DNA of 63,581 nt, filler included, from Candidatus Omnitrophota bacterium (GTDB lineage Bacteria > Omnitrophota > Gorgyraeia > JAGLLT01), in assembly GCA_023140385.1 (NCBI GenBank). It is 4 parts of 4 records of this genome, joined end to end, with 100 filler letters (N's around TTAATTAATTAA, not from the genome) between each part and the next. Parts side by side here need not be neighbours in the genome. Positions count along the whole stretch, not along the records: positions 41,831 to 61,605 come from JAGLLT010000018.1; 3 more parts are not named here. One strand, written 5' to 3'. Each line of letters opens with the position of its first letter. Position 1 is the first letter of the stretch. Made by a program: the position numbers. This document shows, one piece after another, positions 46,201 to 55,200 of the stretch.

Positions 46201-49200
46201 GGAGTGGTTTTGATGGAAAAGATGTGGAAATATTTCTTTACGATGGCAGCAATATAATTCAGCTTACAGATGATACAGATTGTCATAATAATCCCGAAAT
46301 AAATAATCGGGGAGAAGTGGTGTGGGAGATGAATTCAAAAAGAGAAGATTCGGAAATATTCTTTTATGACGGCCAAGGTGTAGAAGTGCTTACGAATAAT
46401 TCAGTTTATGATTATTCTCCTCAAATAAATGATCAGGGGAAAGTAGTGTGGTTCTCAAGGGTAGGTACGGAAGGAAGGGATCGCGATGATGAAATATTGA
46501 TTTATGACGGTAAAGACGTCGTTTGGTTAACGGATAACAAGAGAAGAGAACGTAATGTTCAAATAAATAACCGCGGACAGGCGGTATGGGAAGAGCACGA
46601 CGGGCATGATTGGGAAATATTTTTTGACAATGGCAAAACCGTAATTCAGTTGACGGATAATGATATAGATGATGTTACTCCTCAAATAAACGATGAGGGA
46701 GAAATAGTTTGGTGTGGCGCAGGCCGAGCGCTGCAGTGTGGAAGAAAAATTGAAAGGCAGATATTTTTCTATAACGGCAAAGTTGTAATGCAGCTTACAG
46801 AGGAGGCCGAGGATGTATATGACAATGTACATCCCCATATAAATAACCGGGGAAATATTGTATGGTCCGGCGATTACGGAAGCGGCTACGATATTTTCCT
46901 TGCCACAAAAAACCTCGATCTTTTTGAATCTGCCTTTCCTGGTGATGAGGATAAAATTAAGGCTACGGATATCATAGGCCGAAAACTTCCTTTATAAATA
47001 TATCTCTATATAATAACTATGGCCGCAAATAATATGATGGTGACCATGTTTCAAAGTTGTTTCTCTATAACGGTAAAACTATTACTCAGCTTGCAGGGAA
47101 AGTATCATGGGAAGACAGATAAAAGGTGTCTTCCCCCAAAAGAACAATAAAGCCCCGCCTTTTGTGTAAATGTAAAAAATTTATCCCGTAATAATTCATA
47201 GAGAAGAAATATTTTGAAAAAATACTTGACAAGTCAACTATTGTATGGTAAACTATGTTTAAAATAAGGAGAAAGCTATGGAAAAATCTGATTTTTTTAA
47301 GACCTTTGGTGTGGAGTTAAATAATAAGAGATATTATGAAGAGGCCGTCTACAGCGTAGCCTTGATTTATAACGCGCTTAATAATCATATCTCGCGCCAT
47401 CTAAAGGATTATGGGTTGAGCGTAGCCAAATTTAATGTTTTGCTGGTCATCAAGCATCAGGGGCGGGAAGAAGGTGCCAGCCAGGTGAGCATAAGCCAGC
47501 ATCTGGTAGTTACTCCCTCTAATATGACCCGCCTTCTTGATAAACTTGAAAAAGAAAAACTGATTCGCCGCGTCTGCCAAAAAGGCGACAGAAGAGTAAA
47601 TCTAATAAAGATAACGGATAAAGGAATTAATTTGCTGGATAAAATCTGGCCGGGCTATCTTAATAAATTGCAAAGCCTAAGTTCGCACATAACCGCCGCT
47701 GAGAAAAAAATAGTCTCAACGGTGCTTATAAAGTGGTTGAAGGGAGTATTGCAATGAAGGGATTTTTTGCCTAAAGGAGGAAGCTGAAGAAAGGCGGTTT
47801 AAATGAAAAAAGAAGATTTAATTAAGAGTATGGTTGTTGATAAAAGCCCTTTAGTCAAAGCGGGCTTTAATCCTTATTATCAACCTGTCCGGAGCGGCTT
47901 GGGCAGAAATATAAACGTTAACGGTAAATCTCTGATTTCACTGGGTACAAATGATTATCTGGGTATAGCCAATAATGAAGAGATAAAAAAGGAGGCGCTA
48001 AGGGCATTAAGGAAGTTTGGCGTAAGTATGTGCGGCACGCCGATTGTCGTCGGCCAGACCGCCATCAATAGAAAACTCGAGACGGAAATAGCCAGTTTTT
48101 TAAAACAGGAGGACGCTTTAATATTCCCTTCCTGCTACCAGTGCAATATGGGGATTTTCGGCCTTTTGACAACCGGCGAAGATGTAATTATTGCTGACAG
48201 GGAGATTCATTCTTCTTTGTTGAATGGCATTGGCCTGTCCAAAGCCTCTTTTAAGATATTTTCACACAACAATCTTGATAAGCTAGAAAAAGCTTTAGCA
48301 AGATACAGTAACTGCCGGATGAAATTTATAGTTGTTGAAGGTTTGTATAGTACTAACGGAGATGTTCCGCCATTAGACGGGATGATGAAATTAGCGGAGA
48401 AATACGACGCCTTTATCATTGTTGATGATGCCCATGGTGTGGGTGTGCTGGGCAGGGAGGGGCGAGGCGTTTTGGAGGTTTTTGATGCGTTTAAAGAAAT
48501 AGATTTGGTTACCGGCTCGCTGGGTAAGGGAGTAGGTGCCTTCGGAGGATTTTTAGCGGGAGGCGCTCGATTAATTGATTATTTTCGATACAACTCTCCC
48601 CAGTACTTTTACTCCACAGCCCTGCCGCCAGCTATCGCGGCCGCCTCCATTATCTCCCTCAGATATATCAAAGAACACCCTGAAATACGGGAGAGGATAA
48701 ACAGTTATGCCCGAAAACTATATCAAAAACTTGAAACATTAGGTTTTCGCCTGACTAAATCCACCACTCCGGTAGTCTGCGTTCTTTTTGAAACTGCCGA
48801 AGATGCCATTCTGGCAACTAAGATGCTCTATGAAAAAGGTATTTATACGGTTGTCTTTGTGCCGCCCAGTGTGGCCAAAGGGGCTTCGCGAATCAGGTTG
48901 ACTTTAAATGCCAATCTGCAAAGTGAAGACATTGATTTTGTTATCAGCGTCTTTAGTGACATCAAAAAGAGAAAACCGCAGTGGGTAAACTAAGGTATTA
49001 TCTAATTATGAATCCCGCCTCGAAATCCGGACGAAGCAAAAAGTCCTGCCAACGCGTACTATCTATACTTGACAAGAGAAAGCTCGACTTTAACTATAAA
49101 TTTACCCGCGGGCCGGAGGAAGCGGTAACTCTTGCCGGAGAAGCGGCCGGGAAGGGTTGGGATGTAGTCGTGGCCGTAGGCGGAGACGGGACTATATGCG

Positions 49201-52200: not shown

Positions 52201-55200
52201 ATTGATAAAAACCTGGCCTAAACGGGATGAAGTGCCGCTTTACGGTAAAATGAAAATTTGCGAGAGGGTGTGAAATGTTTTCTAAAAGGATTATTATTTC
52301 TTATGTAAAGTCAACGCGCCCGTATCTGTTTTTTGTTTCAGGTATGGCCGGCTTGCTTGGCATTGTCTTTTCGGAAACAATAGCCTCCTGTGGAAGGACT
52401 ATTTGTATCTTAATCGTACTTTTTTTAGGCTGGGGGGTAAATCAGGTTATCAATGACCTGCTCGGTTTAAGAGAAGATAGAATTAATGCTCCTCATCGTC
52501 CTTTGGTGAGCGGAGAGCTGCCCATTAAAGCGGCCGTTGTCATAAGTCTTCTTTTATTTGCCGGCGGCGGATTAGTTACCTTCTTATTAAACCCGCAGGC
52601 TTTGTTTATCTACAGCGCGATATTTCTCATGAACTTCATTTACGAATATTCAAAAAGTGTACCGGTTCTTGGTAATTTTATCTTTGGTTTTTTGCTCGCC
52701 CTTTGCGTTTATTACGGCGCTGTCTGTCTCAGTCCCCGGGGCTTAGATGCCTTCCTTGATAAAAAACTGCTATTATTGGCGATAAGCGTGGTTTTGATAA
52801 ACATTACGACAGCCTTTTACACTTATTATAAAGACGCCAGAGGTGATTATCTTGCCGGAAAGAAGACTATAATTGTTTGCCTGAAGCCTGACAGAGCAAG
52901 ATATTTGAATTTTATCGTTAGCCTCCTTCCTTTTGTGATCGTTCCGGCTTTGCTATTTTCTCCGGCATGGAACGAAAAAATAAATATATATTTTATAGCT
53001 TTCCTTTTTTTATCTTTTGTTATTTTACAATACACGGCCCTGCTCTTTTTTAAGCATCCCCGGGGCCCTCAAACCTACTTCTCGCTTAGGTGGAATTTTA
53101 CGGGAGCCGTTTTATTTAAAACTTCTTTTGTTGCTCTTGTAAACCCTCTTTTGGCAGGTGTATTATTTTTGGCCAACTTTATCTTAATTAAGTTTTTATT
53201 TAAATTACATTCGGATTATTTGGTTTAAAATGGTATAATTATAAAAAATGTAGAAACAAAAGGAGGATATATGAAAGTTCAAAAGTGGATAAAGCCTTTT
53301 TTTATTATTGCCGGTTTATATGACGGAATTTTGGGTATTATTTTTTTAATAGTTCCGCTTGAACTTTTTAAGACGGCTGCCATCGCCCCGCCCAATCACA
53401 TTGGCTACGTGCAATTTCCGGCACTACTTTTAATTGTCATTGCGGTGATGTTCTTTAATATTGCTAAAGATCCCATAGCCAACCGCAACCTGATTTTATA
53501 CGGTATCTTAGTCAAAATTTCCTACTGCCTGGTAGTATTTCCGCATTGGCTGACCGGCAACATACCGTCTATCTGGATACCCTTTGCTTTTTTTGACCTT
53601 GGGTTTTTGGTAATGTTTTTTATTGCAGGCAAAACACTTAAGCAGACGATGCTAAATAGTCAAAAATAGATAATCAAATACGGCCTATTTACACAATTTA
53701 AGATTTATAACGAAGCCAACATTGAGTTGATGTGGGTAAAGCGTAATTTTCTCGGTACGAAAATAACTTTTTTCCTCGCCGGCAGAGAAGAAGTTTCTTT
53801 ATTTTCCCTTAAGAGGGCATCAACAAAGTTTGGCCTATTAAGAGGGAGTATATTTGACCAGCATAAGATGCTGGCAGGGGGTTTTGAGTGTCAATAGGTA
53901 TCGATTCTATGAAATTTTACGCAGTGTTGGATAAGTATAATCAAAAGATAGGGGACACTGATTACGAAGTTTGATAAAAAGATTCTTGAAATGGAAAAAG
54001 TGTTGAATGTTGAGAACCTGGCCCCTTACGACCGCATGACCCTATACTTCTATACTGGTGATGATTTTATTGATTTGAATGATAATAGATTATGGGATGA
54101 AGGAGAACCATGCGATGACGGGAACAATGATGGTGAATATACTCCTCCAGGATTTAAAACCGAAGGAGATTTAATTGATAATCCAGGCTTTGGAATTGAA
54201 CCAGATAAATTGAATTCTAAACTTAATTAGGGAATCACTATGAAAACAAAATATATTTTGATTTGTCTTAGTTTGCTTTTAACTATTATTTCTTTCAATA
54301 TTTATGCAGATAATAAAATAGAAACTTTAAAAACATATTTAGAAGACAAAAAAATATCAGACTCACCAAATGCCAATGGATTATCCCATCTGGGATCCAA
54401 AGGGTATATAAAACCTGAAGATCAAGTATATATAAATTTAGTTAATAATTTATATGAAATATATCCTCAAAGATTTAGTGTTAGTGTAAGAATTAGTTTA
54501 GCAAAAGAATTAATATCGATTGAAAAAAATGACAAAGCAATAGATATTCTCTTGCCACTAATAAATGAAGTAAAAAAAAGATCTGTATTCTGGGAGTATT
54601 GTTCTAATTGGACATTCAGAGAAGCTCAAGCTAAAGAATTAGAAGGGTTATTTTTATTAACGGAATTATATTTGAAGGATAATAATGTAGATAAAGCACT
54701 TGATGTTTTAATAATTATAAAACAATATTATCCATTTAGAGAAAAAAGTATCGATTCTTTTCTTCTATTTAAAGAGAAATTGAGAAAGTTTAATGAAAAG
54801 CAGAAAGCTATTTTTAATCGTCTTATAACAAAGCAGTTAATTTTTATGAATTCAAACAAATGGGAAGAGCTTGGATTGTTAAGGGATGACAGATTAAATA
54901 AATTGAAGTCGGAACTAGTTGCTTCAGAACCAATTGACGAATTATCATTAAATATAGAGTTCTATAGTTTTGAATCAGAAAAATATTTTATGGTAGTTGC
55001 TTATGTTTCACCAAATACTTCTTTAGTTAACTGTTCTTTTAATTGGGTTATCGAAGGTTCTTACAAAGGAGATAGAGTCTTTAATAATTTTGTATTAATA
55101 GAAAAAGAAAACTTAAAAAATAAAAAAATAAAATTAACAATTACAGATAAGGAAGATAAAATTATTGAAAAGGAATATAATATTTTGCCATCAGCACCCC

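What a model noticed while it worked through the whole genome (the two positions that open the first line are those of the whole stretch)
47278..53669. Cross-phylum lipid-type gene cluster: oxoamine synthase, LCB-kinase-like kinase, SDR fused to a radical-SAM/SPASM enzyme [...]
g00387-g00391 form a tight co-directional operon (behind a MarR gene): an alpha-oxoamine synthase (BioF/Spt family), a DAGK-fold kinase whose best match is plant sphingoid long-chain-base kinase, a 787-aa fusion of a 3beta-HSD/KDS-reductase-type SDR with a radical-SAM/SPASM enzyme, a UbiA prenyltransferase closest to archaeal digeranylgeranylglyceryl-phosphate synthase, and a small conserved unknown. The same gene set recurs side by side in MAGs of many phyla. 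I read it as a pathway that builds a sphingoid-type amino-alcohol (condense, reduce), phosphorylates it, and then O-prenylates it the way archaea prenylate GGGP, i.e. an undescribed prenylated sphingoid-phosphate membrane lipid; I foun [...]
Evidence so far: Swiss-Prot: g00387 35% id to BioF (E 6e-83); g00388 30% to A. thaliana LCKB2 (E 9e-29) vs 25% to DagK (E 4e-16); g00389 N-half 27% to OleD/NSDHL; g00390 29% to T. kodakarensis DGGGP synthase. Pfam: g00389 Epimerase/3Beta_HSD aa 8-246, Radical_SAM 458-595, SPASM 686-740. No biotin pathway to need a BioF: no BioA/BioB/BioD rows, but BioY transporter and BirA are present. The full SDR-rSAM fusion is rare: 19 proteins at E<=1e-30 among 5.8 billion. 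Profile scan of the one-genome-per-species collection: 80 loci kept of 144; tblastn within +-6 kb finds the kinase in 72 of 80, UbiA in 63, oxoamine synthase in 56, kinase+rSAM+UbiA together in 57, all four in 46. In a Lentisphaerota locus (L142) the [...]
(Added by a program. Inside this text positions count along the whole contig: they may not be those of the stretch shown here. "Call 12" and the like, gene names such as g00115 and contig names such as C1 are that model's own, and its searches are not shown. The text may have been shortened before it was handed on; [...] marks where a part breaks off. The agent that wrote the report below was given it as the finding of a first reader that could run no searches.)

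Follow-up and report, generated by a model that had tools for sequence, protein, structure and literature searches.

The report
Uncharacterised amino-lipid prenylation gene cluster
A tight operon joining a sphingolipid-type condensing enzyme, a lipid kinase, a reductase fused to a radical SAM enzyme and an archaeal-type prenyltransferase recurs in many bacterial phyla and some archaea, and probably makes a membrane lipid that has not been described.

Summary
Window 47278-53669 holds one co-directional, partly overlapping operon. Its genes are MarR, an alpha-oxoamine synthase (AOS), a DgkB/YegS-type lipid kinase, an extended-SDR::radical-SAM fusion, a DGGGPS-like UbiA and a small four-helix membrane protein.

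The radical SAM enzyme defines the family. In 105 distinct related loci, the kinase lies beside it in 95, UbiA in 93, an SDR in 74 and AOS in 71. In the 39 loci with full flanks, all four are present in 34.

- Most loci also carry a ThiL-like second kinase (72 of 105) and an OYE/FadH-like reductase (54 of 105). The window has neither.
- The radical SAM enzyme is fused to the SDR in some lineages and to UbiA in others.
- The cluster sits on verified DPANN archaeal contigs.
- It is also in a cultured organism, Elusimicrobium posterum Dip510.

No enzyme reaches the curated cut-off of any named subfamily. Eight literature searches found no description of the gene set.

A lipid product is likely (about 0.75). 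The specific product, a prenylated sphingoid-type phosphate, is inference only (about 0.35). The radical SAM reaction is unknown. The kinase is not specifically like a long-chain-base kinase.

The parts
47226..47254 (+). sigma-70-like promoter candidate upstream of MarR
   Evidence: TTGACA-17-TAAACT, 10 of 12 matches with TG extension. This is a consensus match only; the region gave 22 such sites against 17.0 +/- 4.5 in shuffles.
47278..47757 (+). MarR-family regulator, 159 aa, first gene of the operon
   Evidence: Pfam MarR, MarR_2 and SarA/Rot hits above cut-off. A MarR gene is also beside the cluster in 6 of 105 distinct loci, including L005 and Elusimicrobium posterum L126.
47803..48993 (+). 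alpha-oxoamine synthase (PLP-dependent), 396 aa, the only AOS in the genome
   Evidence: Aminotran_1_2 at 167 bits. NCBIfam bioF 334, Kbl 327, Spt 294/286/226 bits, all below cut-off. PDB: Kbl 1fc4 3.6e-64, SPT 3a2b 8e-61, BioF 3e-51. H136, D208, H211, K241, R363 and R365 are conserved in at least 90% of 47 cluster AOS. No second AOS.
48981..49913 (+). DgkB/YegS/BmrU-type lipid kinase, 310 aa
   Evidence: DAGK_cat at 90.9 bits and YegS_C at 66.4 bits. TIGR00147 scores 114.8 bits against a cut-off of 118.65. Best PDB match is DgkB 2qv7, 7e-19. GGDGTI, GTSPDF and DGD are conserved in at least 90% of 64 family members.
49910..50956 (+). extended-SDR (NAD(P)-dependent reductase) half of the fusion, aa 1-349
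   Evidence: Epimerase at 136 bits and 3Beta_HSD at 88 bits. HpnA 168 and OleD-type 141/123 bits, below cut-offs. The sequence shows GASGFIGSH and YRHTK.
50957..52273 (+). radical SAM enzyme with a partial SPASM (Twitch-like) end, aa 350-787; the signature gene of the cluster
   Evidence: Radical_SAM at 66.9 bits and SPASM at 29.3 bits. C114, C118, C121, C333, G347, C352 and C387 of this part are invariant in 36 sequences. AF2 pLDDT 93.5. Foldseek best matches are SkfB, SuiB, PqqE, viperin, BlsE and MoaA at TM about 0.5. No NCBIfam model is above cut-off.
52275..53228 (+). UbiA-superfamily prenyltransferase, closest to archaeal DGGGP synthase, 317 aa
   Evidence: UbiA at 92 bits. PRK12884/12883/12882 score 92/83.5/71.6 bits, below cut-offs. 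6m31 at E 2.5e-10. Motif 1 reads N60-D61-x-x-G64-x-x-E67-D68 and motif 3 reads D187-x-x-G190-D191; these residues are invariant in 56 of 56 cluster UbiAs.
53271..53669 (+). small membrane protein of unknown family, 132 aa, four hydrophobic helices
   Evidence: No Pfam or NCBIfam hit. Four hydrophobic segments. AF2 pLDDT 94.4 with helices 7-35, 45-66, 73-94 and 100-131. It lies beside UbiA in 15 other loci. In the 7 loci labelled archaeal it is on the opposite strand but still adjacent.

Best explanation
This is a dedicated operon for an unusual two-tailed membrane lipid. The proposed steps are all inferred; none was shown. (1) AOS condenses an amino acid with a fatty acyl thioester to give a 3-keto long-chain amino compound. 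Serine is most likely, because the kinase needs a primary hydroxyl. (2) The SDR half of the fusion reduces the ketone to a sphinganine-type amino alcohol. (3) The DgkB/YegS-type kinase phosphorylates the primary hydroxyl. The product is a one-tailed, phosphate-headed amphiphile shaped like the archaeal intermediate GGGP. (4) The DGGGPS-like UbiA transfers a polyprenyl chain from polyprenyl diphosphate onto it, either at the C2 amine (the position equivalent to the GGGP acceptor hydroxyl) or at the C3 hydroxyl. The genome has one polyprenyl synthase next to IspH to supply the donor. (5) The radical SAM enzyme tailors the same lipid at the membrane by a reaction that cannot be named from sequence. 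(6) The four-helix membrane protein is an accessory, and MarR controls the operon. My odds: conserved biosynthetic cassette 0.95; product is a lipid 0.75; this particular chain of steps 0.35.
For: The operon has overlapping genes behind one promoter-like site. Conservation: among 105 distinct loci the kinase is present in 95, UbiA in 93, an SDR in 74 and AOS in 71; among 39 loci with at least 6.5 kb on both sides the numbers are 38, 37, 36 and 35, with all four in 34. Gene fusions tie the rSAM to both partners: 21 SDR::rSAM clusters and 18 UbiA::rSAM clusters among the 120 listed. Lipid context: a DAGK-fold lipid kinase; ACP directly before AOS, FabF-like KAS, PKS-DH-like, MMPL and LolA-like genes in subsets of loci; a PlsC-type acyltransferase::rSAM fusion in the wider paralogue family. 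The closest solved UbiA is DGGGP synthase, and a review states that UbiA enzymes group by acceptor rather than donor (PMC9385802, passages read). The SDR is nearest to reductases of alpha-substituted beta-keto lipids (OleD type) and to HpnA. A donor supply exists: polyprenyl synthase and IspH on C15. There is bacterial precedent for an SphK1-like kinase acting on dihydrosphingosine (PMC9045371, passages read). Sphingolipid potential is wide in anaerobic bacteria (PMC11334938, abstract and section 20 read). No biotin pathway is present to need a BioF.
Against: No enzyme reaches the curated cut-off of any named subfamily, so every substrate is inferred. AOS is as close to Kbl and BioF as to Spt. 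No ceramide-synthase-like acyltransferase is among the conserved neighbours. The kinase shows no specific likeness to sphingosine kinase. The model gives no role to the ThiL-like kinase (72 of 105 loci) or the OYE-like reductase (54 of 105). A second phosphorylation fits better with a diphosphate donor. Some loci keep kinase-rSAM-UbiA without AOS (L028, L125), and one Omnitrophota locus keeps only rSAM plus the small protein (L002). Motif 1 of the UbiA departs from the canonical NDxxDxxxD, although a fused relative keeps the canonical form. The rSAM fold match is generic. No lipid data exist for any carrier.
Confidence: 0.35

Rival explanations
1. Donor model. The lipid kinase and the ThiL-like kinase phosphorylate a cluster-made lipid alcohol twice (X-OH to X-P to X-PP). 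The UbiA then uses X-PP as the electrophile and couples it to another nucleophile. This follows the logic of phytol salvage feeding chlorophyll synthase, or of diphosphate-activated alcohols in thiamin and methanofuran synthesis (recalled). AOS, SDR and OYE would build an allylic amino alcohol from an enoyl thioester.
For: A ThiL-like AIRS-family protein (thiL model 106 and 90.5 bits, below cut-off) directly follows the kinase in most loci: 72 of 105 overall and 30 of 39 with full flanks. An OYE/FadH-like reductase with a C-terminal Cys cluster is present in 54 of 105. A PKS-type dehydratase with KAS and ACP lies before AOS in Riflebacteria loci. One Omnitrophota locus (L003) has a second DAGK-type kinase after the small gene.
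Against: The window operon and its whole branch lack the ThiL-like and OYE genes, and the genome has no close copy elsewhere (best ThiL-like hit 26% identity, E 2e-9; no OYE hit). All known UbiA donors are allylic prenyl diphosphates or PRPP (recalled). ThiL likeness is below cut-off, and PurM-family enzymes also do other ATP-dependent chemistry.
Confidence: 0.15
2. The product is not a membrane lipid. It is a small molecule, cofactor, signal or polyprenyl-phosphate-linked envelope precursor. AOS, SDR and kinase would make a short amino-alcohol phosphate, and the UbiA would join it to a polyprenyl carrier or aromatic acceptor.
For: AOS scores highest against BioF and Kbl models, which use short substrates. 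rSAM matches are to cofactor and RiPP enzymes such as NirJ, AhbD, PqqE, MoaA and SkfB. A MarR regulator suggests conditional expression. UbiA relatives include phosphoribosyltransferases, though the match here is weak (E 1.8e-6).
Against: The kinase belongs to an interfacial lipid-kinase family. ACP, KAS, MMPL and LolA-like neighbours are present. The UbiA is nearest to DGGGPS, not to aromatic or PRPP-using branches. No precursor peptide or tetrapyrrole genes are conserved nearby.
Confidence: 0.15
3. Lipid salvage or remodelling in host-dependent small cells. The kinase re-phosphorylates scavenged core lipids (diacylglycerol, monoalkyl or monoprenyl glycerol, archaeol). UbiA and rSAM rebuild or modify them. 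AOS and SDR are an add-on.
For: The window's branch of the rSAM tree joins Omnitrophota with a clade (support 100) of DPANN, Thermoplasmatota-labelled and two Patescibacteria-labelled rows. L028 is a verified archaeal contig and carries kinase-rSAM-UbiA-small without AOS. The window genome is 1.5 Mb and no CdsA was found in it.
Against: Large free-living genomes of 3-8 Mb carry the full set including AOS. The window genome has FabF, a PlsC-like gene and the MEP pathway. AOS and SDR are present in 35 and 36 of 39 complete loci.
Confidence: 0.1
4. The genes are ordinary housekeeping neighbours (BioF for biotin, a general DAG kinase, a quinone or haem prenyltransferase) with no common pathway.
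For: Each family has housekeeping members. AOS gives its highest NCBIfam score to bioF.
Against: The same set recurs in three different gene orders across many phyla. Domain fusions link rSAM with SDR and with UbiA. There is no BioB or BioD. All scores are below the equivalog cut-offs.
Confidence: 0.02

Closest known systems
Bacterial sphingolipid synthesis (Spt, CerR-type reductase, bCerS) with ceramide or dihydrosphingosine kinases (Caulobacter CerK, P. gingivalis dhSphK1)
   Same: An AOS-family condensing enzyme lies next to an extended-SDR reductase and a DAGK-fold lipid kinase. Some loci have a dedicated ACP before AOS.
   Different: AOS is below all three Spt model cut-offs. No ceramide-synthase-type acyltransferase is among the conserved neighbours. 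A UbiA and a radical SAM enzyme are obligatory partners, which no described sphingolipid pathway has. That no described pathway has them is recalled; searches found none.
Archaeal digeranylgeranylglyceryl-phosphate synthase (DGGGPS, UbiA superfamily; MjDGGGPS, PDB 6m31)
   Same: It is the best solved relative (E 2.5e-10 over residues 11-263). The N, the last Asp of motif 1, the NxPxRP stretch, a Y..K element and the DxxxD of motif 3 align.
   Different: Scores are 72-92 bits against cut-offs of 269-353. The position of Mj D66 is Gly, with a Glu inserted before the last Asp, in 56 of 56 cluster members. No GGGPS or G1P-dehydrogenase genes are among the conserved neighbours.
Lipid-modifying radical SAM enzymes (tetraether synthase Tes/GDGT-MAS, bacterial Mss)
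   Same: It is a radical SAM enzyme encoded with, and sometimes fused to, a lipid prenyltransferase.
   Different: There is only a generic core match to GDGT-MAS 7tol (25 bits, E 6.5e-5). The fold is closest to Twitch/SPASM enzymes such as SkfB, PqqE, MoaA, BlsE and viperin, at TM about 0.5.
Phytol or geranylgeraniol salvage (alcohol kinase, then phosphate kinase, then UbiA-type transferase)
   Same: In most related loci a lipid kinase is followed by a ThiL-like putative phosphate kinase and accompanied by a UbiA.
   Different: The kinases belong to other families than the plant VTE5/VTE6 enzymes (recalled). The window itself lacks the second kinase. AOS and SDR have no counterpart in this pathway.

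Membership tests
alpha-oxoamine synthase (PLP fold type I) | Aminotran_1_2 domain with PLP lysine, stacking His, Asp-x-x-His and C-terminal Arg | tested here: met
   167 bits against a cut-off of 19.7. H136, D208, H211, K241, R363 and R365 are conserved in at least 90% of 47 cluster members. The roles assigned to these residues are recalled.
serine palmitoyltransferase (Spt) | score above the NCBIfam Spt equivalog cut-offs | tested here: not met
   293.9 against 500, 286.4 against 640 and 225.6 against 670.
BioF / Kbl | score above the equivalog cut-offs, and a pathway context | tested here: not met
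   bioF 334 against 426.45; Kbl 326.7 against 460. No BioB or BioD in the genome.
bacterial ceramide pathway | a ceramide-synthase-type N-acyltransferase encoded with Spt and the reductase | tested here: not met
   No acyltransferase family recurs among neighbours in the 80 loci clustered. The rest of the genome was not searched, for lack of a model accession.
DAGK / YegS / BmrU lipid kinase | DAGK_cat plus YegS_C domains and the GGDG nucleotide motif | tested here: met
   90.9 and 66.4 bits, both above cut-off. GGDGTI is conserved. TIGR00147 scores 114.8, just under its cut-off of 118.65.
sphingosine / long-chain-base kinase | closer to SphK or LCBK than to DAG kinases | tested here: not met
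PDB hits at E<=1e-3 are DgkB, BmrU and YegS only, with no sphingosine kinase chain.
UbiA superfamily | UbiA domain with two Asp-rich motifs | tested here: met
   92 bits against a cut-off of 34.2. Motif 3 is D187xxGD191. Motif 1 is the variant NDxxGxxED rather than NDxxDxxxD.
DGGGP synthase | score above the equivalog cut-offs; canonical D66x3D70 motif | tested here: not met
   92 against 269, 83.5 against 353 and 71.6 against 296. The Mj D66 position is Gly in 56 of 56.
radical SAM | CxxxCxxC cluster motif and Radical_SAM domain | tested here: met
   C114, C118 and C121 of the rSAM part are invariant. 66.9 bits against a cut-off of 29.5.
SPASM (two auxiliary clusters, seven Cys) | the full seven-cysteine motif | tested here: inconclusive
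   Pfam SPASM scores 29.3 against 21.5. Only C333, C352 and C387 are invariant after the core, so it looks Twitch-like with one auxiliary cluster. The seven-Cys definition is recalled.
tetraether synthase (Tes / GDGT-MAS) | specific sequence or fold likeness | tested here: not met
   7tol at 25 bits, core only. It is not among the listed Foldseek matches.
extended SDR | Rossmann GxxGxxG, YxxxK and Epimerase domain | tested here: met
   136 bits. GASGFIGSH and YRHTK are in the sequence. HpnA (168 against 367.65) and OleD (141 against 580) are not met.

The most novel reading that the evidence does not exclude
The cassette makes a new class of membrane lipid that joins the two sides of the lipid divide. 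The lipid would have a fatty-acid-derived sphingoid backbone carrying a phosphate head and an isoprenoid chain. The chain would be attached by a DGGGPS-like enzyme without any ester or amide bond, then altered by a radical SAM enzyme. The cassette has passed between bacterial phyla and into DPANN archaea.
Probability: 0.3. Interest if true: 0.88.

Novelty: new variant of a known kind. Interest (0 to 1): 0.72.

Why it matters
If the reading holds, anaerobic bacteria of many phyla and some archaea build a hybrid fatty-acyl/isoprenoid amino-phospholipid by a route nobody has described. That bears on three questions: the bacterial-archaeal lipid divide, the sources of orphan lipids in anoxic sediments and seeps, and how very small, host-dependent cells obtain membranes.

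The work also defines a large radical SAM family with no known reaction: 603 representatives at E<=1e-30, none named. Its fusion partners (UbiA, SDR, PlsC-type acyltransferase) point to lipid chemistry.

The question is now testable, because a cultured organism with a complete genome, Elusimicrobium posterum Dip510, carries the seven-gene form.

Tried and rejected
- **Single-protein locus scan:** with the whole fusion as query it found only one unrelated SDR locus, L001.
- **Rfam on the window:** no match.
- **Literature:** eight searches in all. Four were aimed at the gene set itself:
  - radical SAM + UbiA + oxoamine synthase: 0 papers.
  - serine palmitoyltransferase + UbiA + radical SAM: 0 papers.
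  - oxoamine synthase + prenyltransferase + diacylglycerol kinase: 0 papers.
  - UbiA + SPASM: 16 papers, none relevant by title or abstract.
  - The other four covered background or carriers:
  - bacterial sphingolipid / ceramide kinase / radical SAM, at least two terms: 23 papers, none on such a cluster.
  - Omnitrophota + sphingolipid: 4 papers, of which one was opened, and it does not treat this cluster.
  - the DGGGPS review search.
  - Elusimicrobium + polar lipid: 1 irrelevant paper.
- **Complex prediction of UbiA with the small protein:** no verdict, score 0.19 against a mark of 0.32.
- **Sequencing runs:** four DNA runs of one cold-seep study hold the stretch, and no RNA holder is listed. 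No reads were laid.
- **Fold search of the small protein:** nothing at E<=0.001.
- **Fold search of the rSAM part:** only generic Twitch/SPASM matches.
- **Protein atlas:** only unnamed or generically named radical SAM clusters.
- **Search for longer fused forms with the window's own UbiA:** none found, which is weak evidence by the tool's own note.
- **AOS tree against characterised Spt, Kbl, BioF and HemA sequences:** not possible, because no reference sequences were at hand.
- **Threonine-dehydrogenase/Kbl reading of the SDR-AOS pair:** considered and set aside. The Thermoplasma 'NDP-sugar epimerase' chains (3a1n and relatives) match only weakly, at about 35 bits over residues 8-127, against 112 bits for the best SDR hit. 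That these chains are threonine dehydrogenases is recalled.
- **Tetrapyrrole reading** (ALAS-like AOS, NirJ/AhbD-like rSAM, ChlG-like UbiA): set aside. The ALAS model scores lowest of the major AOS types (238 bits), and no tetrapyrrole genes recur nearby.

Full report
**What is in the window**

Window 47278-53669 carries six co-directional ORFs on the + strand:
- MarR, 47278-47757.
- An alpha-oxoamine synthase (AOS), 47803-48993.
- A kinase, 48981-49913, with a GTG start.
- A 787-aa fusion, 49910-52273.
- A UbiA, 52275-53228.
- A 132-aa ORF, 53271-53669.

The junctions are a 45-nt gap, a 13-nt overlap, a 4-nt overlap, a 1-nt gap and a 42-nt gap. A promoter-like site (10 of 12 matches, with TG) sits at 47226-47254. 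No terminator-like site was found after 53669, and the next ORF starts 570 nt later in AT-rich DNA.

The window is a concatenation of contig pieces separated by N spacers. The cluster lies within one piece, contig C10 of a 1.50-Mb, 57-contig genome that is 92.7% complete. The four runs that hold this DNA come from one cold-seep metagenome study.

**Family assignments**

- **AOS.** It scores almost equally against bioF (334 bits), Kbl (327) and three Spt models (294, 286, 226), and is under every curated cut-off. Solved structures rank Kbl (3.6e-64), SPT (8e-61) and BioF (3e-51). The catalytic His, Asp-x-x-His, PLP Lys and C-terminal Arg residues are conserved in at least 90% of 47 cluster AOS.
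- **Kinase.** It has DAGK_cat and YegS_C domains. It scores 114.8 bits on the YegS/Rv2252/BmrU model, whose cut-off is 118.65. Its best solved relative is DgkB (7e-19). No sphingosine kinase chain appears at E<=1e-3, so 'LCB-kinase-like' is not supported by what I could test.
- **Fusion, N-terminal half.** It is an extended SDR nearest to HpnA (168 bits) and OleD-type reductases (141 bits), both below cut-off.
- **Fusion, C-terminal half.** It is a radical SAM enzyme. Its CxxxCxxC motif is invariant, and only three further Cys (C333, C352, C387 of that part) are invariant, which suggests a Twitch-like partial SPASM end.
- **UbiA.** It is nearest to DGGGP synthase models (92, 83.5, 71.6 bits; cut-offs 269-353) and to MjDGGGPS 6m31 (E 2.5e-10).
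- **Small ORF.** It has no family. It has four hydrophobic helices and no informative fold match.

**Conservation**

An alignment of the radical SAM part (A1) found 150 relatives in the one-genome-per-species collection, of which 80 were kept. In those 80, tblastn finds the kinase in 71, UbiA in 69, an SDR in 54, AOS in 52, the small protein in 12 and MarR in 3.

A second scan, ordered on a distant member, added further loci. After removing duplicates there are 105 distinct loci. Hits were counted within 8 kb of the rSAM gene at E<=1e-6 and at least half query coverage; partial hits at contig ends were allowed.

| Gene | 105 distinct loci | 39 loci with at least 6.5 kb on both sides |
|---|---|---|
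| Kinase | 95 | 38 |
| UbiA | 93 | 37 |
| SDR | 74 | 36 |
| AOS | 71 | 35 |
| All four | 64 | 34 |

SDRs are a large family, so a few SDR hits may be unrelated. In the common gene order, however, the SDR directly follows AOS.

**Additional members**

Unbiased clustering of all neighbouring ORFs in the first 80 loci showed two more recurrent families that the window lacks.

- A ThiL-like AIRS/PurM-family protein (thiL model 106 and 90.5 bits, below cut-off). It is present in 72 of 105 loci and in 30 of the 39 with full flanks.
- An OYE/FadH-like FMN oxidoreductase with a C-terminal Cys cluster. It is present in 54 of 105 loci and in 25 of the 39.

Rarer neighbours are a FabF-like KAS, an ACP placed directly before AOS, a PKS-type dehydratase, an MMPL transporter and a LolA-like protein.

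Three gene orders exist:
- **Type A:** [KAS] AOS, kinase, SDR(::)rSAM, UbiA, small. This is the window's type. It is found in Omnitrophota and in loci labelled DPANN or Thermoplasmatota.
- **Type B:** UbiA, rSAM, kinase, ThiL-like, OYE, AOS, SDR. It is found in the PVC group, Elusimicrobiota, Armatimonadota and others.
- **Type C:** [KAS, ACP, DH] AOS, SDR, rSAM, kinase, and in some loci ThiL-like, OYE and MMPL or LolA-like genes. It is found in Riflebacteria and Bdellovibrionota.

The window genome has no second AOS, no OYE copy and only a distant ThiL-like hit (26% identity, E 2e-9).

**Fusions**

The rSAM is fused to the SDR in 21 clusters. It is fused to UbiA in 18 of the 120 listed relatives of P0100, in two lineages.

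In the wider paralogue family, members are fused to a PlsC-type acyltransferase, to class I methyltransferases and to DUF362. That family has 603 representatives at E<=1e-30 among 1.84 billion. None of the 22 sampled reached any NCBIfam cut-off.

These fusions place the rSAM beside the prenyltransferase at the membrane and tie it to lipid enzymes.

**UbiA signature**

In 56 of 56 cluster UbiAs, motif 1 reads N-D-x-x-G-x-x-E-D. The position of MjDGGGPS D66 is Gly, and a Glu precedes the last Asp. Motif 3 keeps D-x-x-G-D (motif numbering from PMC9385802, passages read).

A UbiA::rSAM fusion keeps the canonical N-D-x-x-D-x-x-x-D, and another has Asn at that place. The change is therefore a subfamily trait, not proof of a different reaction.

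**Distribution**

A quick maximum-likelihood tree of 99 rSAM rows has two well-supported halves. One half, of 66 rows, holds type B. The other, of 33 rows, holds type C, the Omnitrophota group with the window (support 100) and a support-100 clade of nine rows. Those nine are labelled DPANN, Thermoplasmatota and Patescibacteria.

The root is a midpoint only, so no direction of transfer can be given.

Two archaeal labels were checked:
- L028 carries aCPSF1 (771 bits, above cut-off), an archaeal-type proteasome beta subunit, Mre11/Rad50 and HemK2/MTQ2.
- L014 carries archaeal Rad50 and an archaeal-type PGI/PMI.

L028 has kinase-rSAM-UbiA-small but no AOS within 9 kb, and L014 is cut upstream. The archaeal-labelled loci that do hold AOS (L010, L043, L079) had no decisive archaeal marker in their flanks or were not tested. 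An AOS on a proven archaeal contig is therefore not shown.

Carriers include a cultured organism with a complete genome, Elusimicrobium posterum Dip510. Its locus reads MarR (opposite strand), UbiA, rSAM, kinase, ThiL-like, OYE, AOS, SDR and a PGA_cap-family gene.

**Genome context**

The genome has the following relevant genes:
- One polyprenyl synthase next to IspH.
- A second UbiA on C7.
- One FabF.
- One PlsC-like gene.
- No CdsA match.
- No BioB or BioD above cut-off.

**Interpretation**

A conserved cassette is beyond reasonable doubt. A lipid product is likely, for these reasons:
- the kinase belongs to an interfacial lipid-kinase family;
- the UbiA is DGGGPS-like;
- ACP, KAS, MMPL and LolA-like genes are neighbours in some loci;
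- the rSAM is fused to UbiA, and a paralogue is fused to a PlsC-type acyltransferase.

The most economical chain is condense (AOS), reduce (SDR), phosphorylate (kinase), prenylate (UbiA) and tailor (rSAM).

First, the atom that corresponds to the GGGP acceptor hydroxyl is the C2 amine. N-prenylation is thus at least as likely as O-prenylation.

Second, the model leaves the ThiL-like kinase and the OYE-like reductase of most clusters without a role. A lipid kinase followed by a ThiL-like enzyme suggests two successive phosphorylations. That opens the rival model in which a cluster-made lipid diphosphate is the UbiA's donor.

Nothing in the sequence fixes the amino acid, the acyl chain, the prenyl length or the rSAM reaction. 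The structural matches of the well-predicted rSAM model (pLDDT 93.5) are generic, at TM about 0.5.

**Literature**

Eight searches of the held library found no description of this gene set. The papers read are these:
- PMC9385802, passages on DGGGPS and on geranylgeraniol kinases.
- PMC11868695, passages.
- PMC11334938, abstract and section 20. It reports Spt-like genes in 38 bacterial phyla of the Black Sea and none in archaeal MAGs.
- PMC9045371, passages on a bacterial dihydrosphingosine kinase.

No supplements were read. The supplementary AOS tree of PMC11334938 could bear on whether this AOS falls in their Spt-like clade.

Noticed in passing
window 30471-30570, 41731-41830, 61606-61705: The window is a concatenation of separate contig pieces joined by N spacers. 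Positions 1-30470 are contig C8, and the cluster piece is the end of contig C10. Gene neighbourhood must not be read across these joints.
   Followed up: yes
G000:C7:28486-31424 (outside the window): The genome's second UbiA-family gene (C7:29577-30290) is flanked on both sides by extended-SDR genes. This may be another prenyl- or phosphoribosyl-transfer module.
   Followed up: no
window 57037-57483: A DUF212 'divergent PAP2' membrane phosphatase-family gene lies 3.4 kb downstream of the cluster, after two ORFs with no family (54240-55205, 55688-56752). It is followed by a YkuD L,D-transpeptidase and AccA. It does not recur beside the cluster elsewhere.
   Followed up: partly
G000, whole genome: No CdsA (PF01148) match was found in a genome 92.7% complete, although FabF and a PlsC-like gene are present. 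The route to ordinary phospholipids in this organism is unclear.
   Followed up: partly
L002:9992-11754: The closest Omnitrophota relative (62% identity) has only the stand-alone rSAM and the small membrane protein. They sit among housekeeping genes (mfd-like, surA-like, pdxA, ksgA), with no AOS, kinase, SDR or UbiA within 10 kb.
   Followed up: partly
L003:12820-13677: A second DAGK/YegS-type kinase follows the small gene in an Omnitrophota chromosome. It could stand in for the ThiL-like second kinase of other lineages.
   Followed up: no
P0227, P0173, P0189, P0192, P0204, P0213, P0105: Paralogues of the rSAM (about 190-430 bits to the profile) are fused to a PlsC-type acyltransferase, to class I methyltransferases or to DUF362. 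None of the 22 sampled members of this large family reaches a curated family cut-off.
   Followed up: partly
L021, L076 (rSAM tree): Two short contigs labelled Saccharibacteria and Patescibacteria group inside the DPANN/Thermoplasmatota clade of the rSAM tree. The contigs are too short (3.4-3.8 kb) to check the labels.
   Followed up: no
window 44310-46997: Upstream of MarR lie two genes for likely surface or secreted proteins: one with an IPT/TIG domain, one with weak beta-propeller or NxxGxxAF-repeat hits. They do not recur with the cluster.
   Followed up: partly
L126:14284-15474: In Elusimicrobium posterum a PGA_cap (CapA-like metallophosphoesterase-fold) gene directly follows the cluster's SDR. 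It could be a phosphatase step, but it is not conserved elsewhere.
   Followed up: no
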